A stretch of DNA of 64,000 nucleotides from Candidatus Tayloriibacteriota bacterium. GTDB lineage: Bacteria > Patescibacteriota > Minisyncoccia > Phycocordibacterales > PALSA-1337. The stretch's first letter is position 1. Each line of letters starts with the position of its first letter. The position numbers and the translations under genes are program-made. The stretch lies in NCBI GenBank assembly GCA_037129895.1, contig JBAXUB010000003.1, positions 2,699-66,698 on the forward strand, given 5' to 3'. This document shows, in pieces, positions 2,304-27,558 of this stretch. The notes under the pieces were generated by a model. That model worked only from the letters and a program-made list of their open reading frames with translations, did not search any database and was not told where the DNA came from.

Positions 2304-2819
2304 ATGTTTTCCGACCCAGCAACAAATTTGAATAAAGTAGGCTTAACAGACGGTATGAAAATAGTAGATATAGGCGCCGGTTCTGGTTTCTATAGTATTG
2401 AGGCGGCCAAGAGAGTTGGGGCCACTGGTAGGGTATATGCCGTAGATGTGCAGAAGGACCTATTGGAGAGACTCCGTTCGGTCGGTGCATCTCAAGGTCT
2501 TAGAAATATAGAAGTAATATGGGGAAATGCTGAGAAGATAGGTGGAACGAAACTCCGTGAAGGACTAGCTGACAGAGTCATTGTATCCAATGTATTGTTT
2601 CAAATAGAAAAACCGGATGATTTTGCTTTGGAGATAAAGAGGATCATCAAGCCGGGCGGCAAGGTTTTGTTGGTTGATTGGAGTGAAGTGAGTGCACTCG
2701 GTCCTTCTACAGTTGTATCTTCGAGTCAGGCACAGGCATTATTTGAGAAGTCAGGTTTCAAGTTAGAACAGCAATTCGGTGCAGGGGATCATCATTATGG
2801 CTTGGTTTTTGTAAAGTAG
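2304..2819 (+). CDS. Class I SAM-dependent methyltransferase
   Basis: Motif I 'VDIGAGSGFYSIEAA', acidic motif II 'VYAVDV' and motif 'IVSNVLF' are present, in a UbiE/COQ5-like arrangement. Confidence 0.7.
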   Translation: MFSDPATNLNKVGLTDGMKIVDIGAGSGFYSIEAAKRVGATGRVYAVDVQKDLLERLRSVGASQGLRNIEVIWGNAEKIGGTKLREGLADRVIVSNVLFQIEKPDDFALEIKRIIKPGGKVLLVDWSEVSALGPSTVVSSSQAQALFEKSGFKLEQQFGAGDHHYGLVFVK

Positions 2820-2867: not shown

Positions 2868-4157
2868 ATGTCAAAATTCCAACTAATAATCTTGTCAGTG
2901 TTCGTAGTTTGTATCATTGCTGGTGTTATCGCCTTTGCAACATTCAAGGGTAATGGTACAAGTACTGATCTACCGAGCGTTACTATTTGGGGCACGTTTC
3001 CAGCGGATATTTTTAATAAGTATGTAGTAGAAATTAACAGCACATCATCCGTTACAATGACGGTGAATTATGTAGAGAAGAAACCAGAGCAATTCTCTAC
3101 CGATTTTATAGCAGCTTTGGCGAGAGGTACTGGACCTGATGCGATCCTCATACCACTAGATATGCTGTTGCCTCATTTGGATAAGCTGACCATGATACCG
3201 TATACAGCTCTGTCACAGAGGGCATATATGGATACATATGTTCAAGAATCCAACATATATCTTACAGACAGTGGCATTATGGGCCTACCATTCGTTATAG
3301 ATCCGCTCATCATGTATTGGAATAGGGGGATGTTCAACTCGGCTGGTGTAGCAACTTATCCAAAATATTGGGATGAATTTAACACGATAATACCGAAATT
3401 GACCGTGAGAGAGAGCGATGGGAATGTTCGTAAGTCGGCTGTTGCAATGGGTGATTTTACGAATATGACGAATGCTCGCGAGCTTGTTGGTTCTATGCTA
3501 TTACAACTCAACAATCCTTTTACTGCGTATGATAGTACTGGTATAAAGACAACGATCACGAATTCCTCGGGTTCAGCACCACAATCAGTATTCAAATTCT
3601 TCACACAGTTCGTCGATCCATCTAGTCCCAATTATTCATGGAATAGAGGGATGCCCAATGACAAAACAGCTTTCTTGTCAGGTATAGGGGCTACATATTT
3701 TGGCTTTGCCTCTGAACTCAAGGATATCCGTACAAAGAATCCAAATCTCAATTTTGATGCAGCATCGTTACCACAAGTTCGAACAGGTGGTGTCAAAGCA
3801 ACATTCGGAAAGATGTATGCATTTTCATTCATGAAAAGTTCGAGTAATGTGAACACTGCTTTCCAAGTCGCTTCAACTATGACAGCACCATCATTTTTAC
3901 CTATCTTGGGGAGTATGCTGTATCTACCTTCAGTACGTAGAGATATCATCGCACGTGGTTCTACAGATCCATATATCGATGTTTTCAATAAGGCAGCACT
4001 CGTCTCCAATGGATGGCTGGATATAGAACCTATAAAGTCACGCGCTATTCTCTCAGGAATGGTTCAGAACATTACGAGCGGTAAGGTTTCGGTGAGCGAA
4101 GGTATCCAAGACATTGAGGACTTGTATAATGTTCAGTTAAGGGCTGCCACACAATAA
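2868..4157 (+). CDS. Membrane-anchored extracellular solute-binding protein (SBP family 1/MalE-like), orphan
   Basis: It has an N-terminal TM helix. 'ARGTGPDAILIPLDMLLPHLDKL' resembles the MalE 'GDGPDIIFWAHDRFGG' region. No permease or ATPase gene is adjacent. Confidence 0.4.
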   Translation: MSKFQLIILSVFVVCIIAGVIAFATFKGNGTSTDLPSVTIWGTFPADIFNKYVVEINSTSSVTMTVNYVEKKPEQFSTDFIAALARGTGPDAILIPLDMLLPHLDKLTMIPYTALSQRAYMDTYVQESNIYLTDSGIMGLPFVIDPLIMYWNRGMFNSAGVATYPKYWDEFNTIIPKLTVRESDGNVRKSAVAMGDFTNMTNARELVGSMLLQLNNPFTAYDSTGIKTTITNSSGSAPQSVFKFFTQFVDPSSPNYSWNRGMPNDKTAFLSGIGATYFGFASELKDIRTKNPNLNFDAASLPQVRTGGVKATFGKMYAFSFMKSSSNVNTAFQVASTMTAPSFLPILGSMLYLPSVRRDIIARGSTDPYIDVFNKAALVSNGWLDIEPIKSRAILSGMVQNITSGKVSVSEGIQDIEDLYNVQLRAATQ

Positions 4158-4162: not shown

Positions 4163-4606
4163 ATGAAAAATAAGATATATACGATCATATTGGCCGCCAT
4201 AGTTCTAAGCTCGTTCGCACAGTTTTCAATACTGACCGTTAGTGCAGCAAATGAGTCTGTTGATATAACAAAATCGAGTTTTCAGTTATCTATCTGTGAT
4301 GGACCGAGGCCACCAGGTGGAGGTACTAGTGGCACGGTGTATTGTGATTTTACTGGACTTATCTTGACGGTACAGCGGTTCATCAATGTCGGTATAGCCA
4401 TCGGTGTATTCGTAGCACTCGGTAGTTTCTGTTATATCGGCTATCTATATATGACTGGAACACCGGGCAATATCACCAAGGCAAAATCCATTTTCCCAAA
4501 AATCTTTTTTGGGTTTATAATAATGCTCACGGCATGGTTCATCGTTTATCAGATGCTCTCATGGCTAGGTGCCAGTTCGACCTATACTACTTTATTGGGG
4601 AAATAA
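4163..4606 (+). CDS. Small signal-peptide/2-TM protein, paralog 1 (VirB2/TrbC-pilin-like topology)
   Basis: A signal peptide is followed by two hydrophobic helices. It ends with the shared C-terminal motif 'IIMLTAWFIV', which reads '..LS.WGLVNIL' in the other paralogs. Confidence 0.4.
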   Translation: MKNKIYTIILAAIVLSSFAQFSILTVSAANESVDITKSSFQLSICDGPRPPGGGTSGTVYCDFTGLILTVQRFINVGIAIGVFVALGSFCYIGYLYMTGTPGNITKAKSIFPKIFFGFIIMLTAWFIVYQMLSWLGASSTYTTLLGK

Positions 4607-4616
4607 TATAAATATA

Positions 4617-5087
4617 ATGAAATTATCAAACATAATTGGGTATAAGATTGGAACTAGCGTTATGATCGTTCTCATGTTAGTTGTGGTACTCAGTGTACCA
4701 GTGACTTTAGTCATGGCGCAGATCAATATTGGTGGGAATGCTATTACTGCCCCCGTCAGTGGGAATGGTAAAGCAGGAACTCTCGATAATCCATTAAAAG
4801 GAGTGAGTTCACTCGGCGATCTAGTAAAAACTGGTCTACAAGTCTTTACATACATAGCGGTTCTCATAGGTGTTGTCATGATAGTGATAGTTGGTCTCAA
4901 ATATATCCTCGCACGTGGTAAACCAGAGGAGATGAAGAAAGCCAGCCAATGGCTACTGTATATCGTGATAGGGCTAGCGATCGTTATTGGTTCTAGGATC
5001 GCCGTATCTATCGTTATCAACACACTGGAGTCCTCTGGTGCGGTTGATCCGAAAGTTATACAAAGTGCAAAGAATGCCAATCAATAA
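4617..5087 (+). CDS. Small signal-peptide/2-TM protein, paralog 2
   Basis: Start chosen at ATG 4617 (MKLSNIIG) to avoid overlapping the previous gene. It has a hydrophobic N-terminus and the helix-loop-helix body 'VFTYIAVLIGVVMIVIVGLKYIL...LYIVIGLAIVIG'. Confidence 0.4.
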   Translation: MKLSNIIGYKIGTSVMIVLMLVVVLSVPVTLVMAQINIGGNAITAPVSGNGKAGTLDNPLKGVSSLGDLVKTGLQVFTYIAVLIGVVMIVIVGLKYILARGKPEEMKKASQWLLYIVIGLAIVIGSRIAVSIVINTLESSGAVDPKVIQSAKNANQ

Positions 5088-5107
5088 TTTATTAATTATT
5101 CAATAAT

Positions 5108-5605
5108 ATGACAAAAAAACATTTAAAATATACACTTTCAATATTGATCGCCACTACGCCACTGTTAGCTTTTGCTGCGACGGGCGGTACTTTGAAGACT
5201 TTGATATCATCGATCATCAATTACCTCAATTGGGCACTAGTCCTCATGATGGCTCTGGCTATCGTGTATTTCACTTGGAATGTGATCAAGTATTATGTTA
5301 GGACCAATGAAGATAGGAAAGAGGGAAATACTTATGTTATGTATAGTATCATCGGTTTTTTCGTAATATTGTCTTTCTGGGGATTGGTAAATATTCTGCA
5401 AAATAGCTTCGGTTTGAGTAATCAAGGGAATACTCCAGGTAGTTGGGCTTCATTCTCCAATATTTTCCCTGGAGGAGGGTCGTCAGCTTCTGGTGGGGTA
5501 AGTGATCCAGCCTCGCAGACTCTATTTGATTACCAGGCTGGTGGCAGTTCGATTACTTGTCCGAGTGGAACGGATTACAATGCGACGACTGAGACTTGTA
5601 TGTAG
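5108..5605 (+). CDS. Small signal-peptide/2-TM protein, paralog 3
   Basis: Signal peptide 'LLAFAATGG' and the conserved motif 'FFVILSFWGLVNILQNSFG' are present, with a Gly/Ser-rich tail. Confidence 0.4.
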   Translation: MTKKHLKYTLSILIATTPLLAFAATGGTLKTLISSIINYLNWALVLMMALAIVYFTWNVIKYYVRTNEDRKEGNTYVMYSIIGFFVILSFWGLVNILQNSFGLSNQGNTPGSWASFSNIFPGGGSSASGGVSDPASQTLFDYQAGGSSITCPSGTDYNATTETCM

Positions 5606-5716
5606 TATAACCTATCAATATCCACAGGGGGGTGCATTTAATAGTCTGTAAAGTAGTGTATAATTATAACCAACTAATATATTCGTATTAGCATTTATTA
5701 ACAAATTAACAATAAT

Positions 5717-6076
5717 ATGAAAAAAATCATCGCAGTAGCATTGGCATTAACACCTGTTGTAGCATTTGCTCAATTGACACAGATCACCGACGTCAATAGT
5801 TTGTCTAGTAGACTCGTGAGTTTGGGTAATACATTTACATATTTGTTGATAGCTCTAGCAGTTATCTTCATTATCTGGAACGTGGTTATGTCCTTGATCA
5901 AAGGTAATGATCCTGCAGCTCGTGGTGCAGCAGCATCCTCTATATTGTATGGTATAGTCGGTCTATTCGTAATACTATCTATCTGGGGCCTAGTGAATAT
6001 CCTAGTCAATACATTCGGTACGAGACCACCTGCTGCAACAGTCCCTCAGGCACAGAATGCTCCAATAGTTTACTAA
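5717..6076 (+). CDS. Small signal-peptide/2-TM protein, paralog 4 (best VirB2-like topology)
   Basis: Layout is signal 'VVAFAQ', helix 1, loop 'KGNDPAARGAAAS', then helix 2 'LFVILSIWGLVNILVNTFG'. Confidence 0.45.
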   Translation: MKKIIAVALALTPVVAFAQLTQITDVNSLSSRLVSLGNTFTYLLIALAVIFIIWNVVMSLIKGNDPAARGAAASSILYGIVGLFVILSIWGLVNILVNTFGTRPPAATVPQAQNAPIVY

Positions 6077-6091
6077 TAGTTAAACAATTCG

Positions 6092-6376
6092 ATGTCATCC
6101 GTAACTCAGCTCATGGCCGCACTGGACGCTGCTACATTCGGCAAAGCAGTTGACCCGATTATATCAAATATATTGAATCCGATAATGGCGCTAATATTTG
6201 CTGTTGCTCTCGTCGTGTTCGTTTACGGAGTTTTGACATATGTTTGGGGTTCGCAAGATGGTGATGCAAGGACCCTAGCGAAGAATAGTATGGTTGGAGG
6301 AATCATCGGTATGTTCATCATGTTGTCAGCGTGGGGCATAGTCAATCTGATAGCAAATACTGTTAAATCTCTGTAA
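6092..6376 (+). CDS. Small 2-TM protein, paralog 5
   Basis: It carries the conserved motif 'MFIMLSAWGIVNLIANTV'. Confidence 0.4.
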   Translation: MSSVTQLMAALDAATFGKAVDPIISNILNPIMALIFAVALVVFVYGVLTYVWGSQDGDARTLAKNSMVGGIIGMFIMLSAWGIVNLIANTVKSL

Positions 6377-6416
6377 GTACTCAGAAAAATCTAGATCGGA
6401 ATTATATATAAAAGGG

Positions 6417-6447
6417 AAAGGCCGGACATGAATCGCTTCATGCCGGC
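6417..6447. terminator. Convergent intrinsic terminator hairpin
   Basis: The hairpin 'ggccggacatgaa tcgc ttcatgccggcc' is followed by 'gtttctt'. It sits between the end of the paralog array (+) and the end of the 6464-7009 gene (-). Confidence 0.5.
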
Positions 6448-6463
6448 CGTTTCTTGCAAAGAA

Positions 6464-7009
6464 CTATGACGAGGGTACATCCCTCGTTTCTGATATCGCC
6501 CAGGCAACAGGTGCCTGAGACAACTTTTGGTTTGGTTCGATACTCACCTCGATCGTATTGAACCCGACTGTGTTCTCGAGGTGAGACTTTTCCCGCCAAT
6601 TGCGCGGGTAAAGTTTGAAAATACGACTATCGTCGTGATCAAACCTCACCAACCAATGGACATCGTCGACAAGTATGTTCATGTCGACCCTTCTCCCAAA
6701 GACGCTCACGCCCTGCCATTTTCCTGGCACGGCAATGATGACGCCTGATTCGTGAGCTGTGGTGTAGCTCTGCTTCACCATTTCGCTCATCTTCGGGTTA
6801 AGTCCGTCACCCGATCCGGAAGATCCGGAGGGGGATGACCTCGACACGAATATGATGAGGATGATGAGTGGTGCCAGCAATAGTGCCCACTTCTGTGTTT
6901 TACTCATTTTCTGTTTGGGCGGGATCACCATTGCTGGTGTTACCGCTTTTGTCGTCGCTGCTGCGGGTGCAGCAGGTGTTGTTGTCGTCGCTGCTGTTGG
7001 TTTCGCCAT
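6464..7009 (-). CDS. Hypothetical membrane-anchored protein (first gene of the GC-rich island)
   Basis: It has an Ala/Thr/Pro-rich N-terminus and a TM helix 'WALLLAPLIILIIFV'. GC is ~52% against ~38% in the flanks. Confidence 0.45.
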   Translation of the reverse strand: MAKPTAATTTTPAAPAAATTKAVTPAMVIPPKQKMSKTQKWALLLAPLIILIIFVSRSSPSGSSGSGDGLNPKMSEMVKQSYTTAHESGVIIAVPGKWQGVSVFGRRVDMNILVDDVHWLVRFDHDDSRIFKLYPRNWREKSHLENTVGFNTIEVSIEPNQKLSQAPVAWAISETRDVPSS

Positions 7010-7033
7010 ATTAATCCTTCTATTTTTTTTGTT

Positions 7034-8062
7034 CTATTTTTTGCCTGCCATGACTATTCCCGCGCCGTCCCCAAGGCCCAATGCTGTTAGACCTTCCTGG
7101 GGAATGCCCCGGTATTCGTTCTCTTTTACTTCAATTGTTCGAGTCGTCTTTGGATCGACAGCTGCTGCTGCGGTCCTCGACGCCTCGTTTACGCCCATAT
7201 CAGGGTTCGCTTCCCTGAGTGCTCTGATCCCTTCGTTGATCATACCGATCGTCGACTTGGACGAGTAGATCGTCCTTGACTCTGGTGTGAGGTCAAAGTT
7301 TTCCAACGTTGGATTTTTGATCTCGCACCCGATCTGGTCTTCGAAAGCGGAGATATTTTCTTCGCCATCAAAAAGTGTTGAAACCCATTTGACTACTGAG
7401 CTCTTGTAATAGAGCAGAGTCTCAACCGAGTTCAATCCTGCCAGATCTGATAGTCGAGCAGCGACTAGCGCCAATATCCAGGCCCGAATCTCCGCGTTTT
7501 GATAACGCAGTGATTTGCTGAGCGCATCCGTGTCGCTCTTACGATTGTAGAGTATCAGGATGTTCGCAAACATCACGTATCCATCACGAGTGGTGAATGT
7601 CACCTGATTCTCGCTACCAAATCGGGTCGTTATGATTTCGTGCTTTTGGAAGTTGATTGGCTCTTCCTGAAGCCTAGAACTCCACATTGTGAAGTGGAAT
7701 CCTTGGAGGTAAACCAGGATCTTTCCCGGTCTGAAATAGTCCAGGTAGACCTTGGCTTCCCGAGCGTTCACTGTCGTCCACATCGCTGGGGTGTAGATGA
7801 TCACGAACGCTGCCACTCCGATCAGCGGAATTCCGATCGTCATCATCGACGATTTGTCGATGAATGATAGACCAATCGACAAGGCAACGAAAAGTATCAT
7901 TGCTGTCAATAGGTTGAGTATCAGCGATTCATAATCAAAGTTATTGATCACCGCTACCGCCAACGCTTTATCCGTGTTCACCCTGGCTCCCGGTTTCGGT
8001 GGGAGGGAGGTAATTTTCGGTCTCCGCAACGCGGGCGGAGCTTCTTTAATTTTCTTACTCAT
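7034..8062 (-). CDS. SPFH/band-7 (stomatin/HflK-like) membrane protein
   Basis: N-terminal TM helices are followed by the segment '...HEIITTRFGSENQVTFTTRDGYVMFANILILYNRKSDTDAL...', which is the SPFH pattern. Confidence 0.4.
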   Translation of the reverse strand: MSKKIKEAPPALRRPKITSLPPKPGARVNTDKALAVAVINNFDYESLILNLLTAMILFVALSIGLSFIDKSSMMTIGIPLIGVAAFVIIYTPAMWTTVNAREAKVYLDYFRPGKILVYLQGFHFTMWSSRLQEEPINFQKHEIITTRFGSENQVTFTTRDGYVMFANILILYNRKSDTDALSKSLRYQNAEIRAWILALVAARLSDLAGLNSVETLLYYKSSVVKWVSTLFDGEENISAFEDQIGCEIKNPTLENFDLTPESRTIYSSKSTIGMINEGIRALREANPDMGVNEASRTAAAAVDPKTTRTIEVKENEYRGIPQEGLTALGLGDGAGIVMAGKK

Positions 8063-8200
8063 AATTTCATTTCTTTCTGTCTTTGATCTTCAGCCATAAT
8101 TGTGGCCTCGGATCGGTTTGTCTATTATTCAGCTGTCAAACAGTATCTTTTGGACACTGGCAAGAGTCATCCGACCCTCGCAAACAGGCTTTTAAATCTG
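8063..8200. repeat. Promoter/5'UTR repeat, copy 1 (about 85% identical to 9435-9576)
   Basis: Direct comparison shows it contains TTGACA on the minus strand and the palindrome 'agccataattgtggcc'. It ends at the start codon of the 7034-8062 gene. Confidence 0.6.
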
Positions 8201-8317
8201 GTTCAATTGTAGCATAAAAAAAGGGCAAAGTCAAGGCAAATTGAGTATCGAAATAGGGCTATATAGCAAGTCATATTATTGGCTATTTTTGGTCATAAAT
8301 ATAAAGAAAACCCCTCA

Positions 8318-8352
8318 TAGACATTGCTGTCAGTGAGGGGTTTTTTGAAGGA
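8318..8352. terminator. Intrinsic terminator (bidirectional)
   Basis: 'cccctcatagacattgctgtcagtgagggg' plus a T-run lies downstream of the 8364-9434(-) gene. Confidence 0.5.
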
Positions 8353-8363
8353 ACTGTTCGGTG

Positions 8364-9434
8364 CTACCTGCACCGGCCACCACCACCGTGGTGGTATGTG
8401 GCAAACGGTAGTGGGGGACCGCCACGATATCCGCCGCCGTACGATGGGGCACAATAGCTGCCACTATAGTAGCTACCACCCCCGTATCCGACACTAATGA
8501 TCGGCCTGTACGTTTGATACACGTACGGCTGCTGGTAAACAACCGTCGGCGCTGTTCGATAGTAGTATGAGGACTGCTCAACCGGAGCAGGTTCCCGATA
8601 CTCCTGCACCTGTTTCTCAACAGGTTGCGCCGGCGGTGACCACGTTGAAGTGGTCTTCGTCGCACAAGTCGGCTGCCTCACTGTTACGGCCTGTGTGCTG
8701 ACAAGGGTGTTGCCCTTGTACACAGGCCCGTAGTTTACGGTTATGGAGCAGTTCGTGCTGCTCACAATGTTGAAGCAGTTCGACATGGCCATGGTATTGG
8801 CCACTGAAGAGCTCATCCCACTCTGACTCTGAGCGAGGCCAGCTCTGGCGCGAGCGATTTCGCCCTCGTAATCGCTGAGCTTTTTGCTCTCAGCGTTCAA
8901 GTCGAGCTGCTCTTTATGGGCAGCGTCGTACCCTTTTGTCAACTTCCTGTATTCTGCAGCTGTCGCTGCGGCTGTTGACGGCGCGTCCACGGTGGCCTTC
9001 TGGTCGCGGTGTGTCCACCACCACCAGAGACCGATGAGGCTGAGAATCGCCACGATTAACGTGGTAATCTTAAGCCACTTCCACTTGTCGCCCGAAGCGG
9101 GCGGCGTGGTGGTGACGTTTACTGTCGTCGATCCACCTGTACCACCGGAAGCTGCAGCTGCTGCAGCGGCGGCCGCGGCTGCTGCTTTAGCGGCGCTCCC
9201 TGCGCGCGGCTTCCGAGCCTTCTTGGGTGCGGCTGGCTGCGGCGGCGGAGTGACTGGTGGCGGCGTCCCCGTTGTTGGGGGAGTTGCCGTCTTCTTCGCC
9301 TTGGCAGTTTTAGGGGCGGCAGGTGCCGTACCCGAAGTTGCTGCTGACGCTGTTGTTGCTGCAGGTGCTGTATTTACAGAACCTGGATTTGCGGGCGGTT
9401 GCCCAACCGGCGTTTTTGTCGTTGCCATATTCAT
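8364..9434 (-). CDS. Low-complexity Pro/Ala/Thr-rich membrane protein with Gly/Tyr-rich C-terminus
   Basis: It contains the TM helix 'ITTLIVAILSLIGLWWWW' and a coiled-coil segment. GC is ~62%. The plus-strand ORF 8884-9471 is its antisense shadow. Confidence 0.5.
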   Translation of the reverse strand: MNMATTKTPVGQPPANPGSVNTAPAATTASAATSGTAPAAPKTAKAKKTATPPTTGTPPPVTPPPQPAAPKKARKPRAGSAAKAAAAAAAAAAAASGGTGGSTTVNVTTTPPASGDKWKWLKITTLIVAILSLIGLWWWWTHRDQKATVDAPSTAAATAAEYRKLTKGYDAAHKEQLDLNAESKKLSDYEGEIARARAGLAQSQSGMSSSVANTMAMSNCFNIVSSTNCSITVNYGPVYKGNTLVSTQAVTVRQPTCATKTTSTWSPPAQPVEKQVQEYREPAPVEQSSYYYRTAPTVVYQQPYVYQTYRPIISVGYGGGSYYSGSYCAPSYGGGYRGGPPLPFATYHHGGGGRCR

Positions 9435-9576
9435 ATTTCTTTTTCTTTCCGTCTTTGATCCTCGGCCATAATTATGGCCTCGGATCGGTTTCTATATTCA
9501 GCTGTCAAACAGTATCTTTTGGACACTGGCAAGAGTCATCCGACCCTTGCAAACAAGCTTCAAATTTCTGGTGGTA
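9435..9576. repeat. Promoter/5'UTR repeat, copy 2
   Basis: It contains TTGACA on the minus strand and the perfect 16-bp palindrome 'ggccataattatggcc' at 9464-9479. It ends at the start codon of the 8364-9434 gene. Confidence 0.6.
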
Positions 9577-9647
9577 TTATATCACAAAGGAGTAATTTGT
9601 CAAGGTAAACGTATTTCGGCAATGATCGGGTGAACATGAGTCAAATA

Positions 9648-9673
9648 GCGTTATACCATATATGGTATAACGC
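9648..9673. repeat. 26-bp perfect palindrome gcgttataccata|tatggtataacgc
   Basis: Read directly. It lies ~40 bp from the first tRNA-Leu 3'-end repeat. Confidence 0.6.
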
Positions 9674-9713
9674 CTATAAGCTATGTTGTGCGCCCCAGGA
9701 TAACATATTTGCG

Positions 9714-9731
9714 GTGCCGGGGAGAGGACTC
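9714..9731. repeat. Direct repeat of the tRNA-Leu 3' end (18 bp, gtgccggggagaggactc), copy distal to the tRNA
   Basis: It is identical to 10024-10041, which is the 3' terminal 17 nt of tRNA-Leu plus 1 nt. Confidence 0.6.
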
Positions 9732-9855
9732 TTTCCCTACGGGAACGGTACAGTCTTCGTATTTCTCCTCGTCTACGACTCGTAGAAATATACTCAGACT
9801 TTTCGAGTCTTTGGACGCGAACCAGTCAACTGGTTCGCTGGTGGTATGCATATCA

Positions 9856-9873
9856 GTGCCGGGGAGAGGACTC
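9856..9873. repeat. Direct repeat of the tRNA-Leu 3' end (18 bp), middle copy
   Basis: It is identical to 9714-9731 and 10024-10041. Confidence 0.6.
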
Positions 9874-10024
9874 CCCCGCGACTCTCGGCTGACCAGTCAG
9901 CCTCGGTCTGGGCACCGGCTCGCGGCTCGGTGCGCTCACCTCGCACGCTCCGCCGTTCTCGTCCTACCCCATGTCACAATGATGCTCCATTCGGACTGCA
10001 TTTAGCAGTCCTCGTGGATCATTG

Positions 10025-10106
10025 TGCCGGGGAGAGGACTCGAACCTCCATGAATTGCTTCGCGTGGTCCTAAGCCACGTGCGTCTACCAATTTCGCCAC
10101 CCCGGC
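10025..10106 (-). tRNA. tRNA-Leu (anticodon TAG), type II with long variable arm
   Basis: I folded it by hand. Acceptor GCCGGGG pairs with CCCCGGC, anticodon arm is CGTGG-CTTAGGA-CCACG, and T arm is GGAGG-TTCGAGT-CCTCT. Length is 82 nt. Confidence 0.8.
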
Positions 10107-10271
10107 GTAGATATAACATAGCATGTTTATGTGGGATTGACAAAATGGTATAAACAATGTTATAGTACACACGGCTAAGTTCTCTTACAATGTGATTTGA
10201 ACCAAGTGCCAAAAGTAAACAACCGGGCCTTTATGCCCACGGCTGAATAAGCCAAAAAAGAAAGGATAGTT

Positions 10272-11702
10272 ATGTTAAGTGAAAAATTCGTGCTGACGGT
10301 AAGTCGGCTAGTCATGCCGATCGGATTCGCTGTCGAAAATTTGGTCGCACGTATGCTACTCATGTGGTATGCGTTTGATAGGTTCGTCGGGGTAGATAAG
10401 GCCCCTATCATGTTCTCTCAGGGGGAAGTGATCGGAGTGGATGCTACGTTCGACGCAGATGGTGAGGTGCCTATCGGGTGCGGACAAGGAAGGTTCGGGA
10501 CCGAGCATCCGGCCATCTCGGTGGCCAAAGAGCTCGGAATCCAGGACAACGCGGAGTTGTTACCGCTACTAGGATTTCTGAAAAATGGGACAGGTAGTGA
10601 GTTGCGACTGCAAGTGCTGTTCAAGTCCGTTCGTCGAAAGGTGAACGGTGACCCGAAGACATGCATTCAGGTTATGAGCATCTTCATTGATGCCATAATC
10701 ATGAATGCCCGGTACAATCCGGTCGCATGTCAGAAGGAACTGTCGCTGGAAGAGGTCTTTCAAGGTCTCATCAAGCGCAAGAAGTTCACTGACAAACGAG
10801 CCTGCGCTCATCTGCAAAAGCAGATCGAACTCAGTCTTGCGAACAGTAAAGATGTGACTGAGTTAAATCACGTCCTTATGGCACTGTTCCGTCGTCGTGA
10901 CAAGACTGTGACGACAGCGGATGTGCCTCTCTACAAGGAGGCTGACATCCTCGAGTGGATGGAGTTCGTCCTCACAGCCTATTACCAGCAGCAGATCGAC
11001 TTTGGCAAGGCGCTGGAGGAGGTTCGAGATTTGGAACCTGTCATGGTTCCTACACTGATCGGTAAGAGCAGATTCAAGATGAAGCTCATCACCGTATCGA
11101 GTGAAAATGATCAGGTGGCAAAAGCTGCCAGATCGCTCGGTGCGGACATAGTCTTGCACAGAGAGCCAATGTCTCTACGTCGTCACATAAGTTTTGGTCC
11201 TGTCCGTGGGTTATCTAGCCAGAACCTGGCGAAAATGATCGAGTGGATGGAGGTGCCGAAAAAAATGAAAAGTCGAGTAAAGTGGGCTGATCTGGGAAGC
11301 TTCGACAAGAGTCGCGGGATCACATGGTGGCACGTGGACCGCAACGGAAATCTGCATAATGGTACCAAGTACCGTCCGCAGCCGGAATCGATGATCGCAG
11401 ATTCTTCGATCGTTGATGCGATCCAGCACGCCTTCCATTTCGAGGAACTGAAGTTCTGGTGCAATCATCCGGATCGCAAGATCAGGATCTCGGCCAGAAC
11501 GGAAGGGAAGAAACAGCTCGCCCTTCCTCAGCCCAACGGAAACAATGGGAACGGGAATGGACATCACGAGGTAGCCGGGATCAATGCGGTGGCAACTGCA
11601 TTCGACAAAGCCTTGGAATCCAAGGCAGTCAGGGACGTTGTCAAAGACGTCAAGCCCAAGCGCAGGGTTAGTAAAGGGGACAAGGTTGTCAGCAGGGCAT
11701 AG
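10272..11702 (+). CDS. Hypothetical protein (GC-rich island; no recognisable domain)
   Basis: A 476-aa ORF at ~52% GC. I see no tyrosine-recombinase R..HxxR..Y signature. Confidence 0.45.
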   Translation: MLSEKFVLTVSRLVMPIGFAVENLVARMLLMWYAFDRFVGVDKAPIMFSQGEVIGVDATFDADGEVPIGCGQGRFGTEHPAISVAKELGIQDNAELLPLLGFLKNGTGSELRLQVLFKSVRRKVNGDPKTCIQVMSIFIDAIIMNARYNPVACQKELSLEEVFQGLIKRKKFTDKRACAHLQKQIELSLANSKDVTELNHVLMALFRRRDKTVTTADVPLYKEADILEWMEFVLTAYYQQQIDFGKALEEVRDLEPVMVPTLIGKSRFKMKLITVSSENDQVAKAARSLGADIVLHREPMSLRRHISFGPVRGLSSQNLAKMIEWMEVPKKMKSRVKWADLGSFDKSRGITWWHVDRNGNLHNGTKYRPQPESMIADSSIVDAIQHAFHFEELKFWCNHPDRKIRISARTEGKKQLALPQPNGNNGNGNGHHEVAGINAVATAFDKALESKAVRDVVKDVKPKRRVSKGDKVVSRA

Positions 11703-11780
11703 TACAAATCAAGAACAGGGGGTTCCAGACAACTGGGCCCCCTTTCCTTTTATCTCAACATCCAATAGTTGAATCTGGTA

Positions 11781-11809
11781 TTGTCTAAATCACAAAAACC
11801 TGTTATATT
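11781..11809 (+). promoter_or_regulatory. Sigma70-like promoter for tRNA-Lys
   Basis: TTGTCT is followed by 17 nt and then TATATT, ending 9 nt before the tRNA 5' end. Confidence 0.45.
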
Positions 11810-11818
11810 TTCTCGTAC

Positions 11819-11891
11819 GCGCCCATAGCTCAGCTGGTAGAGCAGATCCCTCTTAAGGATAAGGTCGTAGGTTCGATCCCTACTGGGCGCA
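11819..11891 (+). tRNA. tRNA-Lys (anticodon CTT)
   Basis: Acceptor GCGCCCA pairs with TGGGCGC, D arm is GCTC..GAGC, anticodon loop is CTCTTAA, and T arm is GTAGG-TTCGATC-CCTAC. Length is 73 nt. Confidence 0.8.
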
Positions 11892-12020
11892 CAGAAATGA
11901 AAGTATTATATTAGTAGCAGGTGCATTTATGCACCTGCGTGTGGGGAGCGACTGTCGGAACAATACCGAGCCTAGTCAGGCGAGGTTGTCATTTCATCGG
12001 TCACGTGCAATAATTACTTT

Positions 12021-12308
12021 ATGTCAATAGCAGAAATACAGGAGAAAATTAGTCCAGTTCTCAAGTCATACGGTGTTACTTATGCTGGTATTTTTGGTTC
12101 AGTTTCGCGAGGCGAGGATCTTCCAGGTAGTGATATTGATATACTGATCAAGCTCGGCAAACCAATGGGCATGTTTTCTTATATGAGCCTGATTGAGGCT
12201 ATTCAGGACATATTGGGACGCAAAGTAGATATAGTTACAGAACAGAGTTTAAGTAAGTTTGTTAGACCTTATGTCATGCCTGAGTTAAAGACTATTTATG
12301 AAGGATGA
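12021..12308 (+). CDS. MNT-type nucleotidyltransferase antitoxin (MntA-like)
   Basis: It carries the minimal NTase motif 'GIFGSVSRGEDLPGSDIDILI'. It overlaps the downstream HEPN gene by 11 nt. Confidence 0.7.
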   Translation: MSIAEIQEKISPVLKSYGVTYAGIFGSVSRGEDLPGSDIDILIKLGKPMGMFSYMSLIEAIQDILGRKVDIVTEQSLSKFVRPYVMPELKTIYEG

Positions 12309-12621
12309 GAAAGTCTACATAGAACAGATGTTGGATTCGGTAGCAAAGATCGAAGATTTTACTAGTGGTATGAACAAGGAAGGTTTTATGAATGATTCCA
12401 AAACTCAGAGTGCCGTCATTATGCAGTTGGCAGTGATCGGCGAAATAGTAAAGAAGGTCTCTCCGAAGACGAAAGAAACTAGTGACATACCATGGAAAGA
12501 GATTGCAGGTTTCAGAGATCGAGCTATTCATCATTATTTTGGTATGGACCTGAATGTGATCTGGGATACTGTAGTTTTGGATATTCCAATTCTGAAGGCA
12601 GAACTCAAAAAGATACCATAA
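12298..12621 (+). CDS. HEPN/DUF86 toxin (HepT-like)
   Basis: The Rx4-6H motif 'RDRAIHH' is present and it is paired with the upstream MNT gene. Confidence 0.7.
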   Translation: MKDEKVYIEQMLDSVAKIEDFTSGMNKEGFMNDSKTQSAVIMQLAVIGEIVKKVSPKTKETSDIPWKEIAGFRDRAIHHYFGMDLNVIWDTVVLDIPILKAELKKIP

Positions 12622-12655: not shown

Positions 12656-13207
12656 ATGAATAAAAGTATCAAATTATTTAGACCTCGGTCTATCCGCGGT
12701 TTTACTCTGATCGAGATGCTCGTGGTTATAGCTATCATAGGCATATTGACGGGGATCATCGTCACTAACCTTTCTGGAGCAAAAGGAAAAGCCAGAGATG
12801 CAAAGAGAGTTTCGGATCTGAGTCATATTCAGTTAGCATTGCAGTTATATTTCGATAGGTGTGGTAGGTATCCAGAACCTGATGGTGGAGGAGTTGGTCA
12901 AGGGGGTAATGGTCAATGTAATAGAACAAAGTCGGGTCCAAATTCGGAATATACAATGTCTGATTTCATCCCGTCTATTCCAACACCGACGAGTGAGGCG
13001 GGGCAGACGGTTTATGGGTATGACTATGATTCAATTAAACCATATACCTACGTACTATATGCTGCCCTCGAATCTCCGAGTGCGGCTGTAAATGATGGTT
13101 TGAAGGCTGTGAGTGGTAGCCCGTCCTATTCTATCGGTACAAAAACTCTTACCTGTGGCGACAACACCACTGCCGGTTCCGTCCTCTATTGTCTCGGACC
13201 AAACTAA
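12656..13207 (+). CDS. Type IV pilin (major pilin candidate)
   Basis: Prepilin leader plus 'G|FTLIEMLVVIAIIGIL', the class III signal-peptide motif. The tracker's 12650 start is a TTG. Confidence 0.8.
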   Translation: MNKSIKLFRPRSIRGFTLIEMLVVIAIIGILTGIIVTNLSGAKGKARDAKRVSDLSHIQLALQLYFDRCGRYPEPDGGGVGQGGNGQCNRTKSGPNSEYTMSDFIPSIPTPTSEAGQTVYGYDYDSIKPYTYVLYAALESPSAAVNDGLKAVSGSPSYSIGTKTLTCGDNTTAGSVLYCLGPN

Positions 13208-13211
13208 GAAC

Positions 13212-14015
13212 ATGGATACACTTTCACTCGTTCTATCATTCATATTCGGCACGGTTATCGGAAGTTTCTTGAACGTAGTATCTCTGCGTTTCAATACAGG
13301 AACAGGTATAGGGGGTAGATCCAAATGCATGTCATGTGGAACGACTCTCACATGGAGGGAACTCGTACCACTTTTCAGTTACACAGTGCAGCTCGGCAAG
13401 TGCAAGAAGTGCAAGAGCAAGATCTCTTGGCAGTATCCACTAGTCGAATTCGTAGGTGGAGCATTATTCGTTCTCATATTCATCACATTTCCTCCACTTT
13501 CATTACTTTCAGGGATCACGACATTCTTGTATGTGATCGCTAGTTGTCTCCTGTTGGTAATGTCTGCATATGATATAAAACACAAGATAATACCAGATCA
13601 GTTCGTGTATACATTCATCTTGATTTCACTCATCAACCTATGTGTTGGTGGCACGTCACTACTGCATGTTCCTAGTATTTCAGCTTTTGCTGCTGGACCA
13701 CTGCTCGCTCTACCATTCGCACTGCTCTGGTTGGTATCGAAAGGTACATGGATGGGACTGGGTGATGCGAAATTGGTCCTCGGAATAGGATGGTTCACTG
13801 GGATCAGTCTAGGGATCAATGCTCTCATACTAGCTTTCTGGATCGCAGCAGGCGTCTCTGTTATATGGCTATTTTCTACATACAAGAAATTCAAATCAAA
13901 GACCGAGATACCTTTTGGACCATATCTCATATTGGGTATGTATTTGGTTATCGTATTCCATATTCAAGTTATCGATATTCAGCTCATAAAGGAATTATTG
14001 ATCGCGTATTTATAA
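13212..14015 (+). CDS. pilD: Prepilin peptidase (A24 family)
   Basis: It has the N-terminal zinc motif CxxC...CxxC (CMSCG...CKKCKSK), catalytic 'YDIKHKIIPD' and 'GLGDAKL'. Start ATG 13212 was chosen to avoid overlapping the pilin gene. Confidence 0.85.
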   Translation: MDTLSLVLSFIFGTVIGSFLNVVSLRFNTGTGIGGRSKCMSCGTTLTWRELVPLFSYTVQLGKCKKCKSKISWQYPLVEFVGGALFVLIFITFPPLSLLSGITTFLYVIASCLLLVMSAYDIKHKIIPDQFVYTFILISLINLCVGGTSLLHVPSISAFAAGPLLALPFALLWLVSKGTWMGLGDAKLVLGIGWFTGISLGINALILAFWIAAGVSVIWLFSTYKKFKSKTEIPFGPYLILGMYLVIVFHIQVIDIQLIKELLIAYL

Positions 14016-14034
14016 ATCATGATATAATGATCGT

Positions 14035-14631
14035 ATGATCCGCCTTCGAAAACATAATAAAGGCTTCACTCTCGTCGAACTTCTGGTCTGTATTGTGATC
14101 TTCGTCATCATGACCGCACTACTCGTGGTCAAATACGGCAATTTCAATCAGAATATCCTAGTCACCAACTTGGCGTATGACACTGCTCTCGCCATTCGCA
14201 CTGCACAGAATTACGGATTGAGTGTGAAAGCAGCTCAGACGACAACTGATTGTAGTAATGATTCATCATCGGCGTTTCAATGCGCGTATGGTGTGGAGTT
14301 TAATGCACCTAGTGGTAATTCATTTATTTTGTTTGCGCACGTGCCAATTACTACCGAGACTGGCATGTATGTTGAAGGAACTGATTCAAAAATGACAACA
14401 TATAATATGAAAAGTGGAGCCGTGATCACCAGGTATTGTTTCAATGAAAATGATTGTTCGAGTCTTGAAATAGGTAAATTGGATATCCTATTCAAACGTC
14501 CAGATCCGACGGCTCTCATATATTATGAAGGTAATCTCAAGTCATATGTGAAAATCATGATCCTGGGCACTGATGGAACGAAACGGAACATAAGCATTCG
14601 TAGCAACGGTCAAATATCTGTAGATATATAA
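14035..14631 (+). CDS. Minor (pseudo)pilin
   Basis: 'KGFTLVELLVCIVIFVIM' is a prepilin N-terminal methylation motif. Confidence 0.7.
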   Translation: MIRLRKHNKGFTLVELLVCIVIFVIMTALLVVKYGNFNQNILVTNLAYDTALAIRTAQNYGLSVKAAQTTTDCSNDSSSAFQCAYGVEFNAPSGNSFILFAHVPITTETGMYVEGTDSKMTTYNMKSGAVITRYCFNENDCSSLEIGKLDILFKRPDPTALIYYEGNLKSYVKIMILGTDGTKRNISIRSNGQISVDI

Positions 14632-14632
14632 T

Positions 14633-15298: not shown

Positions 15299-15305
15299 TA
15301 TCAAA

Positions 15306-15908: not shown

Positions 15909-15913
15909 CAATC

Positions 15914-16465: not shown

Positions 16466-16471
16466 TTGTGA

Positions 16472-18798
<2,327 letters not shown>

Positions 18799-18829
18799 AT
18801 ATGTGGAAATGCTCCGCCAGAATATAACC

Positions 18830-20281: not shown

Positions 20282-20301
20282 TAATTTGCTATAATATACC
20301 T

Positions 20302-20862: not shown

Positions 20863-20866
20863 AAGT

Positions 20867-20885
20867 GTAGAGGTCAGACCTCTGC
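20867..20885. repeat. Palindromic element GTAGAGGTC(A)GACCTCTGC, copy 1
   Basis: Together with the following G-rich tract it is near-identical to 21507-21525. Confidence 0.55.
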
Positions 20886-20934
20886 AGTGGGGTGGTGGTG
20901 AGAGTTGTTGCTTTGGTAGCTTTTTCGTATATAC

Positions 20935-21456: not shown

Positions 21457-21472
21457 TAAGTTTCGGTTTCAA

Positions 21473-21506
21473 GGCATGTATACCTCCCGTATGCATGCCC
21501 TTTTTT
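21473..21506 (+). terminator. Intrinsic terminator
   Basis: Stem ggcatg...catgcc followed by a TTTTTT run. Confidence 0.45.
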
Positions 21507-21525
21507 GTAGAGGTCTGACCTCTAC
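21507..21525. repeat. Palindromic element GTAGAGGTC(T)GACCTCTAC, copy 2
   Basis: Direct comparison with 20867-20885. Confidence 0.55.
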
Positions 21526-23763: not shown

Positions 23764-23769
23764 AAATAT

Positions 23770-27551: not shown

Positions 27552-27558
27552 TGATCCT

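What the first reader, a model, noticed from the sequence alone, without database searches (positions are those of the whole stretch)
4163..6376. Tandem array of five paralogous VirB2/TrbC-like small membrane proteins
Five consecutive same-strand genes (94-172 aa) each encode a signal or hydrophobic N-terminus followed by a helix, short polar loop, helix unit. They share a conserved C-terminal helix motif [FLI]xI[ML][LT][SA]xWG[LI]VN[IL][LI]. The topology matches conjugative-pilin/T4SS VirB2-TrbC proteins, but there are five copies and no VirB4/VirB6 genes in the window. The array ends at a strong convergent terminator, immediately before the GC-rich island.
Basis: partly seen in the sequence, partly recalled or inferred. 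Interest (0 to 1): 0.55.

Follow-up and report, generated by a model that had tools for sequence, protein, structure and literature searches.

The report
Patescibacterial VirB2-like pilin gene array
Five neighbouring genes in this Candidatus Taylorbacteria (candidate phyla radiation) genome encode small membrane proteins of the VirB2/TrbC conjugative-pilin type; such arrays were already described in these ultrasmall bacteria, so this is an ordinary new example, with a notably fixed gene order.

Summary
Five same-strand genes (4163-6376) encode helix-loop-helix membrane proteins, followed by a strong terminator hairpin.

Four of the five pass the gathering score of Pfam PF18895 (T4SS_pilin). 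The first falls just below it but is shown to be homologous at family level. Orthologues of the second all match canonical TrbC/VirB2 (PF04956).

The organism is a Ca. Taylorbacteria MAG (Patescibacteria). Tandem arrays of 2-11 divergent VirB2-like pilins in Patescibacteria are published (Quinonero-Coronel 2025). A six-gene array is essential in Southlakia epibionticum (Wang 2023). So this is a new member of a known kind.

What I add:
- In 80 other species the order methyltransferase, sugar-type solute-binding protein, p1, p2, p3, p4 (sometimes duplicated), p5 is invariant.
- The five are therefore old, non-redundant subfamilies, not recent or strain-variable copies.
- p4 genes carry their own conserved upstream box (ATCCACAG, about 31 nt, TATAAT).
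- No VirB4, VirB6 or VirD4 lies in the window, in 76 kb of the contig, or within 10 kb of the array in any of the 80 species.

Whether this genome has VirB4 elsewhere could not be tested. Interest is modest.

The parts
2304..2819 (+). Class I SAM-methyltransferase gene (171 aa). It is the conserved first gene of the block. A functional link to the pilins is not shown.
   Evidence: Pfam Methyltransf_11/25/31 from precomputed hits; NCBIfam matches only generic methyltransferases. Found immediately upstream of the SBP gene wherever that region lies on the contig (69 of 80 species representatives).
2868..4157 (+). Membrane-anchored, carbohydrate-type solute-binding-protein-like gene (429 aa, one N-terminal TM segment at residues 6-24). 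It ends 5 nt before p1. No ABC permease or ATPase lies beside it.
   Evidence: PF13416 SBP_bac_8 at 31.2 bits against a cutoff of 27. A profile of 39 orthologues hits solved sugar-binding proteins (4r9f MBP1 E 4e-18, MalE family). TM segment. The gap from this gene to p1 has a median of 3 nt in 66 species. Sources name it 'extracellular solute-binding protein'.
4163..4606 (+). p1: the most divergent pilin-like paralogue (147 aa). It has a signal-like N-terminus, an extracellular segment with a conserved Cys pair (CDGP...CDF; C45, C61), then the two-helix hairpin.
   Evidence: PF18895 at 24.2 bits, below the 26.6 cutoff. 1301 cluster representatives at E<=1e-3. 53 of 54 relatives hit PF18895. 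hhalign against the p4 family gives 94.8%. Cys columns are invariant or nearly so. Topology.
4617..5087 (+). p2: the TrbC/VirB2-closest paralogue (156 aa from the ATG at 4617). It has a signal-like N-terminus, a Gly/Asn-rich spacer and the hairpin.
   Evidence: PF18895 at 33.8-34.1 bits and PF04956 at 19.7-23 bits. 51 of 51 orthologues hit both families. hhalign against the p4 family gives 98.2%, E 3e-14.
5108..5605 (+). p3: pilin-like paralogue (165 aa) with a long Gly/Ser-rich C-terminal tail ending in a Cys pair.
   Evidence: PF18895 at 41.4 bits. Orthologues sit in third position in relatives, with length varying from 73 to 242 aa.
5620..5664 (+). Conserved p4-specific upstream element in the 111-nt p3-p4 gap: an ATCCACAG box, about 31 nt of spacer, then TATAAT, 52 nt before the p4 ATG. 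Candidate internal promoter with a regulator site.
   Evidence: Window match. In 80 species, 71 of 78 gaps before p4-type genes have TCCACA, with a spacing to a -10-like hexamer of median 31 nt (IQR 29-31). ATCCACA lies upstream of 62 of 115 p4 genes against 0-3 for each other gene of the block. Background is 0.27 per kb.
5717..6076 (+). p4: the most conserved, most 'typical' paralogue (119 aa). It has a signal peptide (AFA|Q), the hairpin, and a Pro/Ala-rich tail. Candidate major subunit.
   Evidence: PF18895 at 39.8 bits. 332 homologues at E<=1e-3, nearly all PF18895. AF2 hairpin model with pLDDT 79.9. Duplicated in 31 of 80 species.
6092..6376 (+). p5: the shortest paralogue (94 aa). It is the hairpin only, with no signal peptide, and has a conserved C-terminus NTVK(S/G)L.
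   Evidence: PF18895 at 43.7 bits. Two hydrophobic segments in 77 of 79 orthologues. Always the last gene of the array.
6413..6455 (.). Bidirectional intrinsic-terminator-like hairpin between the array and the convergent genes.
   Evidence: dG -24.4 kcal/mol, z -5.6, 0 of 200 shuffles fold as well. Sequence.
6464..8062 (-). Two convergent membrane-protein genes: cA 6464-7009 (181 aa, 1 TM) and cB 7034-8062 (342 aa, 2 TM). Genes of similar size sit in the same position in relatives. A link to the array is unproven.
   Evidence: Same position in L008, L010 and the P0010 contig. blastp assigned cA-like ORFs in 17 and cB-like ORFs in 9 of the 80 species; two further minus-strand ORF clusters of about 330 aa (29 and 23 loci) lie about 2 kb past p3/p4. 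No Pfam or NCBIfam hit for the window copies; Band_7 only as a weak hit in one relative.

Best explanation
This is a vertically inherited chromosomal operon of a Ca. Taylorbacteria (Patescibacteria, class Paceibacteria) genome. It encodes five different, non-redundant members of the VirB2/TrbC-like PF18895 pilin family and is co-transcribed with a membrane-anchored sugar-type solute-binding protein.

Shown here:
- Family membership of all five proteins.
- The topology: a signal-like N-terminus in p1-p4, then a two-helix hairpin with a short basic loop.
- Tight gene spacing from the SBP gene through p3, and between p4 and p5.
- A terminator after p5.
- Five orthologous subfamilies in a fixed order in 80 species.
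- A conserved promoter-like element specific to p4.

Inferred:
- p1-p4 are exported by Sec and cleaved after AxA. p5 inserts without a leader, as other leaderless hairpin proteins do.
- All five sit in the cytoplasmic membrane with the loop inside.
- A VirB4/VirB6-type machine of the Patescibacteria MPF-FATA-like type IV secretion system, encoded elsewhere in the genome, takes them from that pool. It builds them into one mixed surface structure, a short pilus or a channel lining.
- p4 is the major subunit. p1, p2, p3 and p5 are specialised minor subunits for initiation, tip or base.
- By analogy with the essential array of Southlakia epibionticum, the structure serves contact with, or exchange with, a host cell. 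It does not serve plasmid conjugation.
For: - Pfam PF18895 is above its gathering score for p2-p5, and p1 is just below. p1 is homologous at family level.
- The p2 family matches canonical TrbC/VirB2 PF04956 in 51 of 51 members and aligns with the p4 family at 98.2%.
- Hairpin topology and basic loops; AF2 hairpin model.
- Organism: identical protein in a Ca. Taylorbacteria MAG.
- Literature: 441 arrays of 2-11 VirB2-like genes in 383 Patescibacteria assemblies, mean identity 25%. VirB4 was found in 2,417 of 3,035 assemblies. The pilin is near virB4 in only 1,135 of 1,948 assemblies.
- Six PF18895 pilins, SEML1_0014-0019, are essential in S. epibionticum.
- Orthology follows position. Window paralogues match their positional counterparts at 43-60% identity, but match each other at only 18-73 bits.
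- The order is the same in 80 species representatives.
- Gaps: SBP to p1 median 3 nt, p1 to p2 5 nt, p2 to p3 14 nt, p4 to p5 6 nt, but p3 to p4 75 nt. That longer gap holds the conserved box.
- One species with the array, Taylorbacteria RIFCSPHIGHO2_12_FULL_45_16 (L054), is listed as VirB4-positive.
Against: - No VirB4, VirB6, VirB3/PrgI, VirB8 or VirD4 lies in the 64-kb window, in 76 of the 82 kb of the contig, or within 10 kb of the array in 80 species.
- VirB4 elsewhere in this MAG was not tested.
- In the published table, only 14 of 23 Taylorbacteria assemblies are VirB4-positive.
- No filament made of PF18895 proteins has been seen in any organism, according to the reviews read.
- Fold and sequence searches against solved structures did not retrieve conjugative pilins: Foldseek best E = 1, profile search best E = 0.15.
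- The roles assigned to individual paralogues (p4 major, the others minor) rest only on conservation, duplication and the promoter element.
Confidence: 0.6

Rival explanations
1. The five hairpin proteins and the tightly coupled solute-binding protein form a membrane or surface complex of their own that works without VirB4. One possibility is a sugar or oligosaccharide capture and uptake device, or an envelope scaffold. In that case the family name 'pilin' would mislead in this lineage.
For: - The SBP gene is always directly upstream of p1 (median gap 3 nt in 66 species). It is a genuine sugar-type SBP with no ABC permease nearby.
- No T4SS gene lies near the array in 80 species.
- 9 of 23 Taylorbacteria assemblies lack a detected VirB4.
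- In other Paceibacteria listed in the stored part of the published table, only a single pilin sits next to virB4.
Against: - In Saccharimonadia and Microgenomatia the same family lies inside or beside the virB4 cluster and is essential together with it.
- The VirB4-negative calls come from draft MAGs.
- At least one array-bearing species is VirB4-positive.
- No known transporter uses VirB2-like hairpins.
Confidence: 0.2
2. The paralogues are interchangeable alternative major pilins kept for antigenic or host-range variation, as proposed for tandem VirB2 copies in Bartonella and Anaplasma and suggested for Patescibacteria arrays.
For: - Low identity between the copies.
- The suggestion is made in the literature.
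- The outward-facing N- and C-terminal tails vary in length. p3 orthologues range from 73 to 242 aa and p1 from 87 to 423 aa.
Against: - Each of the five subfamilies keeps its position and its own signature across 80 species: the Cys pair in p1, the TrbC-like core in p2, no leader in p5.
- The two assemblies of this organism have identical proteins.
- Only p4 is ever duplicated.
- No inverted repeats, silent cassettes or recombinase lie near the array.
Confidence: 0.1
3. The genes encode unrelated small membrane proteins such as holins, bacteriocin-immunity proteins or toxin partners. This is the alternative the first reader offered.
For: - Small two-helix membrane proteins are common in those classes.
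- 4 of 51 p2 orthologues give weak Phage_holin_3_6 hits.
Against: - Specific profile hits to pilin families.
- No phage, lysin or bacteriocin genes nearby.
- No match in viral contigs or plasmids.
- A housekeeping neighbourhood (gyrA, nusB, rnc, smc) that is conserved across species.
Confidence: 0.03
4. The genes are subunits of the type IV pilus (T4P) whose genes lie 6-22 kb downstream in the window.
For: A T4P cluster is present: prepilins, PilD peptidase, PilB ATPase and PilC.
Against: - None of the five has the N-terminal methylation motif PF07963 or a prepilin-type leader.
- Their fold is a hairpin, not a single N-terminal helix with a globular head.
- In relatives the array is not next to T4P genes.
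Confidence: 0.02

Closest known systems
Essential pilin array SEML1_0014-0019 of Candidatus Southlakia epibionticum ML1 (Saccharimonadia; Wang et al. 2023, PMC10633639)
   Same: Same Pfam family (PF18895, some members also PF04956). A tandem same-strand array of about 130-aa divergent paralogues in a Patescibacterium that also has type IV pili.
   Different: - There are six genes, lying directly beside the virB4, prgI and virB6 genes (SEML1_0006-0013), and they are shown essential by Tn-seq.
- Here there are five genes, no T4SS gene within the contig region examined, an SBP gene coupled upstream, and no experimental data.
VirB2-like arrays of Patescibacteria (Quinonero-Coronel et al. 2025, PMC12102498)
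   Same: Meets their description: 2-11 pilin genes in tandem, mean identity about 25%, detected with PF18895/PF04956, chromosomal, no relaxase.
   Different: - They report arrays as most abundant in Microgenomatia and Saccharimonadia, and their analysis centres on the virB4 neighbourhood.
- This array is in Paceibacteria and is unlinked to virB4.
- The fixed gyrA-methyltransferase-SBP-p1..p5 order and the p4 box do not appear in the sections I read.
Canonical conjugative pilins VirB2/TrbC/TraA (PF04956) of Gram-negative type IV secretion systems
   Same: A leader peptide, two hydrophobic helices and a short basic cytoplasmic loop. p2 orthologues hit PF04956 directly.
   Different: - Those are normally a single gene inside a virB operon, in diderm bacteria, polymerised with VirB4, VirB6 and VirB5 and an outer-membrane core.
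- Here the host is a monoderm, there are five paralogues, no adjacent machinery, and the window proteins score below the PF04956 cutoff.
Mbov_0395 / ICE_MMCAP2_0565 family pilin-like conjugal transfer protein (NCBIfam NF045849) of mycoplasma integrative conjugative elements
   Same: p2-p5 align over nearly the whole 80-residue model. NCBI names one p4 relative this way.
   Different: Scores of 23-29 bits are well below the cutoff of 40. Those proteins are carried on mobile elements, whereas this array is chromosomal and vertically inherited.
Tandem VirB2 paralogues of Bartonella and Anaplasma phagocytophilum
   Same: Several VirB2-like genes in a row (cited).
   Different: Those are thought to be interchangeable variants for immune evasion. 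Here five old subfamilies keep fixed positions, which argues for separate roles.

Membership tests
Pfam PF18895 T4SS_pilin | Whole-protein score at or above the gathering score of 26.6 bits | tested here: met
   p2 33.8, p3 41.4, p4 39.8, p5 43.7 bits
Pfam PF18895 T4SS_pilin | The same criterion applied to p1 | tested here: inconclusive
   p1 scores 24.2 bits, below the cutoff. However, 53 of 54 p1-family relatives hit PF18895 at E<=0.01 (best 3e-14), and hhalign of the p1 family against the p4 family gives 94.8%, E 5e-8.
Pfam PF04956 TrbC/VirB2 pilin | Whole-protein score at or above the gathering score of 27.9 bits | tested here: not met
   Window p2 scores 19.7-23.0 bits and p5 13.5 bits; the others give no hit. 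All 51 p2 orthologues hit at E<=0.01, best 5e-11, so the relation is real but distant.
VirB2/TrbC-type conjugative pilin (functional class) | A cleavable leader followed by two hydrophobic helices joined by a short positively charged loop | tested here: met
   p1-p4 have a signal-like segment with an AxA site plus the hairpin. The loops hold 2-5 Lys/Arg. p5 has the hairpin but no leader. Cleavage itself was not tested.
VirB2/TrbC-type conjugative pilin (functional class) | Encoded within, or next to, a type IV secretion gene cluster containing VirB4 | tested here: not met
   No T4SS Pfam family among the genes of the window or of 76 kb of the 82-kb contig. None among recurrent neighbours within 10 kb in 80 species.
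VirB2/TrbC-type conjugative pilin (functional class) | VirB4 ATPase present somewhere in the same genome | not testable with these tools
   The rest of the MAG could not be fetched. Published frequencies are 2,417 of 3,035 Patescibacteria assemblies and 14 of 23 listed Taylorbacteria assemblies.
VirB2/TrbC-type conjugative pilin (functional class) | Polymerises into an extracellular filament | not testable with these tools
   This needs microscopy or biochemistry. Reviews state it is unknown even for the essential Southlakia array.
Patescibacteria VirB2 array (as described by Quinonero-Coronel et al. 2025) | Two to eleven pilin genes in tandem, or separated by one non-pilin gene, with low mutual identity, in a Patescibacteria chromosome | tested here: met
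   Five adjacent genes; 21-23% identity to p1 in the multiple alignment and at most 37% between any pair. The organism is Ca. Taylorbacteria. Definition.
NCBIfam NF045849 Mbov_0395 family pilin-like conjugal transfer protein | Score at or above the curated cutoff of 40 bits | tested here: not met
   p2 23.2, p3 29.4, p4 23.4, p5 26.8 bits; p1 gives no hit
Type IV pilin (T4P/T2SS pseudopilin) | N-terminal methylation motif (PF07963) and a prepilin leader | tested here: not met
   No PF07963 hit for any of the five at E<=1, whereas downstream genes of the window do have it.
Holin / bacteriocin-immunity small membrane proteins | A profile hit to a holin or immunity family, with phage or bacteriocin genes nearby | tested here: not met
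   No such hit for the window proteins; weak Phage_holin_3_6 hits in only 4 of 51 p2 orthologues. The neighbourhood is housekeeping genes. No viral or plasmid relatives.

The most novel reading that the evidence does not exclude
In this Paceibacteria lineage the five VirB2-like hairpin proteins, together with the translationally coupled sugar-binding protein, form a machine that does not depend on VirB4. It could be a mixed surface fibre or membrane conduit that captures and passes on host-derived carbohydrates. It would have been retained even where the type IV secretion ATPase has been lost. The conserved ATCCACAG box would put its major subunit p4 under separate control.
Probability: 0.15. 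Interest if true: 0.7.

Novelty: new member of a known kind. Interest (0 to 1): 0.3.

Why it matters
VirB2-like pilins in bacteria without an outer membrane are a recognised puzzle. Gram-positive type IV secretion systems normally have none, yet in the one Patescibacterium that can be manipulated genetically the pilin array is essential, and its role is unknown.

This locus does not add a new kind of system. It does give a clean comparative picture that bears on the puzzle:
- Five old subfamilies sit in an invariant order in at least 80 species. That argues for a mixed, stoichiometric assembly and against interchangeable variants.
- The constant coupling to a sugar-type binding protein gives a concrete hypothesis to test.
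- The p4-specific upstream box gives another.
- The separation from virB4 gives a third.

If the array persists in genomes that truly lack VirB4, the 'pilin' label would need rethinking.

Tried and rejected
1. **Structure comparison.** Foldseek of the p4 model against the PDB gave no significant match (best E = 1.0). The hits were generic helical hairpins and no conjugative pilin appeared in the top 50. A simple hairpin is too featureless for this test, so I treat it as uninformative, not negative.
2. **Profile search of the p4 family against PDB sequences.** Nothing below E 0.15.
3. **tblastn of p2 against 72,556 plasmids.** No match.
4. **Scan of viral contigs with the p4-family profile.** No relative found. 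The family is therefore not obviously mobile or phage-borne in those collections.
5. **Finding VirB4 in the same genome.**
   - Precomputed Pfam hits for 76 kb of the 82-kb contig show no T4SS gene.
   - The species itself is not among the genome representatives; the best p4 match there is 75%.
   - The stored copy of Table S3 of PMC12102498 is cut off before the Taylorbacteria rows.
6. **Cross-referencing array-bearing species with the published VirB4 yes/no list.** Only two names could be matched. One is VirB4-positive. The other is 'No', but in an assembly with only 206 annotated CDS, so it tells nothing.
7. **A search seeded with the SBP of a named Taylorbacteria genome.** This was meant to pull in more named genomes. 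It returned one truncated name only.
8. **'Recent foreign GC-rich island' next to the array.** Rejected as the sole reading. Convergent genes of similar size occupy the same position in relatives, and the downstream 3.2 kb is also GC-richer there (0.497 against 0.459 over 44 loci).
Full report
**What is there**

The ORF list and the sequence show five consecutive + strand genes:
- p1 at 4163-4606
- p2 at 4617-5087
- p3 at 5108-5605
- p4 at 5717-6076
- p5 at 6092-6376

The ORF lister starts p2 at a GTG (4569) that overlaps p1. The ATG at 4617 gives MKLSN... and agrees with an independent gene call and with the orthologues.

Each protein has two hydrophobic segments of about 19 residues joined by a polar loop of 15-21 residues with 2-5 Lys/Arg. 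p1-p4 also have an N-terminal hydrophobic segment ending in an AxA-type site. p5 has none. AlphaFold2 with 53 homologues models p4 as a leader helix plus a hairpin of two long helices, 26-61 and 66-100, with mean pLDDT 79.9.

The hairpin after p5 (6413-6455) folds at -24.4 kcal/mol, z -5.6, and has T-rich flanks on both sides.

**Family**

Pfam PF18895 (T4SS_pilin, gathering score 26.6) scores p2 33.8, p3 41.4, p4 39.8 and p5 43.7 bits. p1 scores 24.2.

I tested p1 further:
- An exhaustive HMMER search found 1301 cluster representatives at E<=1e-3.
- 53 of 54 aligned relatives hit PF18895.
- The p1-family profile aligns with the p4-family profile at 94.8% probability, E 5e-8.
- p1 carries an extra, nearly invariant Cys pair (CDGP...CDF) before the hairpin.

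For p2, all 51 orthologues tested hit both PF18895 and the canonical TrbC/VirB2 family PF04956, best E 5e-11. The p2 and p4 families align at 98.2%. The NCBIfam model for the mycoplasma ICE pilin-like protein (NF045849) is matched only below its cutoff. None of the five has the type IV pilin methylation motif.

**Organism and literature**

An identical p4 is recorded from a Candidatus Taylorbacteria MAG, and almost all homologues are unnamed Patescibacteria proteins carrying PF18895.

Quinonero-Coronel et al. 2025 (PMC12102498) searched 3,035 Patescibacteria genomes with PF18895 and PF04956 and reported:
- 441 arrays of 2-11 pilin genes in 383 assemblies, with mean identity 25%.
- VirB4 in 2,417 assemblies.
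- A pilin near virB4 in 1,135 of the 1,948 VirB4-positive assemblies that have pilins.

Wang et al. 2023 (PMC10633639) showed by Tn-seq that six PF18895 genes, SEML1_0014-0019, are essential in Southlakia epibionticum. They lie beside virB4, prgI and virB6. A 2025 review calls these the only VirB2-like pilins in monoderm T4SSs and says their role is open. The kind of feature is therefore already known.

**Context in this genome**

Precomputed and fresh Pfam results for the window, and for 76 of the 82 kb of the contig, show no VirB4, VirB6, VirB3, VirB8 or VirD4. The window does hold a type IV pilus cluster (prepilins, PilD, PilB, PilC), but it is unrelated in sequence to the five genes.

Directly upstream of p1, with a 5-nt gap, lies a 429-aa protein with one N-terminal membrane segment and an SBP_bac_8 domain. 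A profile of 39 orthologues matches solved sugar-binding proteins of ABC importers, 4r9f at E 4e-18 and the MalE family. No permease or ATPase gene is adjacent. Upstream of that are a small SAM-methyltransferase and gyrA.

**Comparative result**

Three relatives looked up by exact protein showed the same block. It runs gyrA, methyltransferase, SBP, five or six pilin genes, then two convergent genes.

An all-against-all blastp shows that orthology follows position. Window p1 matches the first gene of the other arrays at 43-50% identity. p2 matches the second, p3 the third, p4 the next-to-last and p5 the last. Paralogues within a genome score only 18-73 bits against each other. The second assembly of this organism carries identical proteins, so there is no strain variation between the two.

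A scan of species-representative genomes returned 80 loci:
- Every one shows the same order wherever the contig allows.
- 34 are p1-p2-p3-p4-p5, and 31 are the same with p4 duplicated.
- Three loci carry a different extra copy, and the remaining 12 are truncated at contig ends.
- Median identity to the window proteins is 44-53%. Best-hit bit scores for the positional counterpart are about 2-4 times those for any other paralogue.
- Recurrent neighbours are housekeeping genes (nusB, rnc, smc).
- The large non-recurrent ORFs I checked were ClpB, IF-2, GroEL, a family-5 SBP and similar proteins, not T4SS parts.

**Operon structure**

Median intergenic gaps across species are:

| Junction | Median gap (nt) |
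|---|---|
| SBP to p1 | 3 |
| p1 to p2 | 5 |
| p2 to p3 | 14 |
| p3 to p4 | 75 |
| p4 to duplicated p4 | 88 |
| p4 to p5 | 6 |

The longer gaps carry a conserved box, (T/A)ATCCACAG. It is followed, at a nearly fixed 31 nt (IQR 29-31), by a TATAAT-like hexamer about 38 nt before the start codon. The box occurs in 71 of 78 such gaps. It lies upstream of 62 of 115 p4-type genes, against 0-3 for each other gene of the block. The background frequency is 0.27 per kb. In the window it is at 5620-5664. I read this as an internal, p4-specific promoter with a regulator site.

Taken with p4 being the most conserved and the only paralogue regularly duplicated, this points to p4 as the major subunit. That is an inference.

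**Most likely mechanism**

Shown here: the family, the topology, the operon layout, the age and non-redundancy of the five subfamilies, and the lack of physical linkage to T4SS genes.

Inferred:
- Sec export and cleavage of p1-p4, and leaderless insertion of p5.
- A membrane pool of hairpins with the basic loop on the cytoplasmic side.
- Recruitment by a VirB4/VirB6 machine encoded elsewhere into one mixed structure used for interaction with a host cell.

I give this 0.6.

The main rival, at 0.2, is that in this lineage the pilins work with the coupled sugar-binding protein and without VirB4. It draws on three points: the constant SBP coupling, the absence of T4SS genes nearby, and the 9 of 23 listed Taylorbacteria assemblies with no detected VirB4. 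Against it stand the draft state of those assemblies, the clear T4SS linkage of the same family in other classes, and one array-bearing species that is VirB4-positive (L054).

Interchangeable antigenic variants (0.1) fit poorly with the fixed positions. Holin or immunity proteins, and T4P subunits, are effectively excluded.

**Limits**

- Structure-based comparison was uninformative for so simple a fold.

**Verdict**

This is a real and correctly interpreted feature, and a new member of a published kind. It has some organisational details (fixed five-subfamily order, SBP coupling, p4 box, separation from virB4) that I did not find described in the sections I read. Interest is 0.3.

Noticed in passing
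window 8036-8240 and 9408-9612 (minus strand): The two minus-strand genes cB (7034-8062) and cC (8364-9434) are each preceded by a strong sigma-70-like promoter: TTGACT-17-TACAAT, and TTGACA-16-TATAAT (12 of 12). Each then has a duplicated leader of about 130-150 nt, 78-97% identical between the two copies. The leader folds into three hairpins (dG -36.6 and -43.6 kcal/mol, z -3.2 and -4.9). It is 80% conserved over 118 nt in the closest relative (L012). It has no Rfam match, even at E<=1. Candidate cis-regulatory leader RNA.
   Followed up: partly
window 6377-12000: This stretch is GC-rich: 0.51 against 0.40 for the rest of the window. It holds cA, cB, an Ala/Pro/Thr-rich 356-aa ORF, tRNA-Leu(TAG) at 10024-10106 (-), a 476-aa ORF with no family hit, and tRNA-Lys(CTT) at 11819-11892. 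Convergent genes of similar size sit in the same position in relatives, and the region just after the array is GC-richer there too. The 476-aa ORF has homologues in 7 of the 80 loci. It does not look like a recent foreign insertion.
   Followed up: partly
window 12656-28525: Type IV pilus gene cluster, interrupted by housekeeping genes. It contains several N_methyl prepilins, a PilD-type peptidase (about 13113-14015), PilB ATPase (22114-23763), PilC (23770-24906) and a 748-aa N_methyl protein (25305-27551). DNA ligase and gatC/gatA lie in between.
   Followed up: no
L008 9575-9898; L010 9610-9915 (and 31 of 80 species): The extra, sixth pilin gene in many relatives is a duplicate of p4. In the two copies read (L008 g4, L010 g4) it starts exactly at the predicted mature N-terminus (M-x-x-ITD(V/I)NSL) and has no signal peptide. 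Across the 80 loci, 46 of 117 p4-type ORFs show only two hydrophobic segments. So both leader-bearing and leaderless forms of the same subunit seem to coexist.
   Followed up: partly
proteins P0167, P0168, P0183, P0203, P0266: Some relatives of p1 are 400-590 aa long, with the pilin hairpin at the extreme C-terminus. These look like pilins fused to large N-terminal, presumably extracellular, domains. I did not examine them.
   Followed up: no
L068 (PMYF01000060.1); the many loci titled 'uncultured Candidatus Saccharibacteria' among L016-L091: A contig labelled Acidobacteria carries p4-p5 of this Paceibacteria-type operon, which suggests mis-binning. Many TPA assemblies labelled Saccharibacteria carry the full Paceibacteria-type block, so those labels may be generic and not taxonomic.
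   Followed up: no
window 12021-12621; 42891-44368; 36526-37206: Small mobile or defence-type modules are present: a nucleotidyltransferase/HepT toxin-antitoxin pair just after tRNA-Lys, a Polbeta nucleotidyltransferase gene close to a PemK toxin gene, and a LAGLIDADG-like ORF (faint hit) wedged between tRNA-Met and tRNA-Asp.
   Followed up: no
Table S1 of PMC12102498, Taylorbacteria rows: Only 14 of the 23 listed Ca. Taylorbacteria assemblies are scored VirB4-positive. That is lower than the phylum-wide 80%. It would be worth checking whether this lineage is losing the ATPase while keeping the pilin operon.
   Followed up: partly
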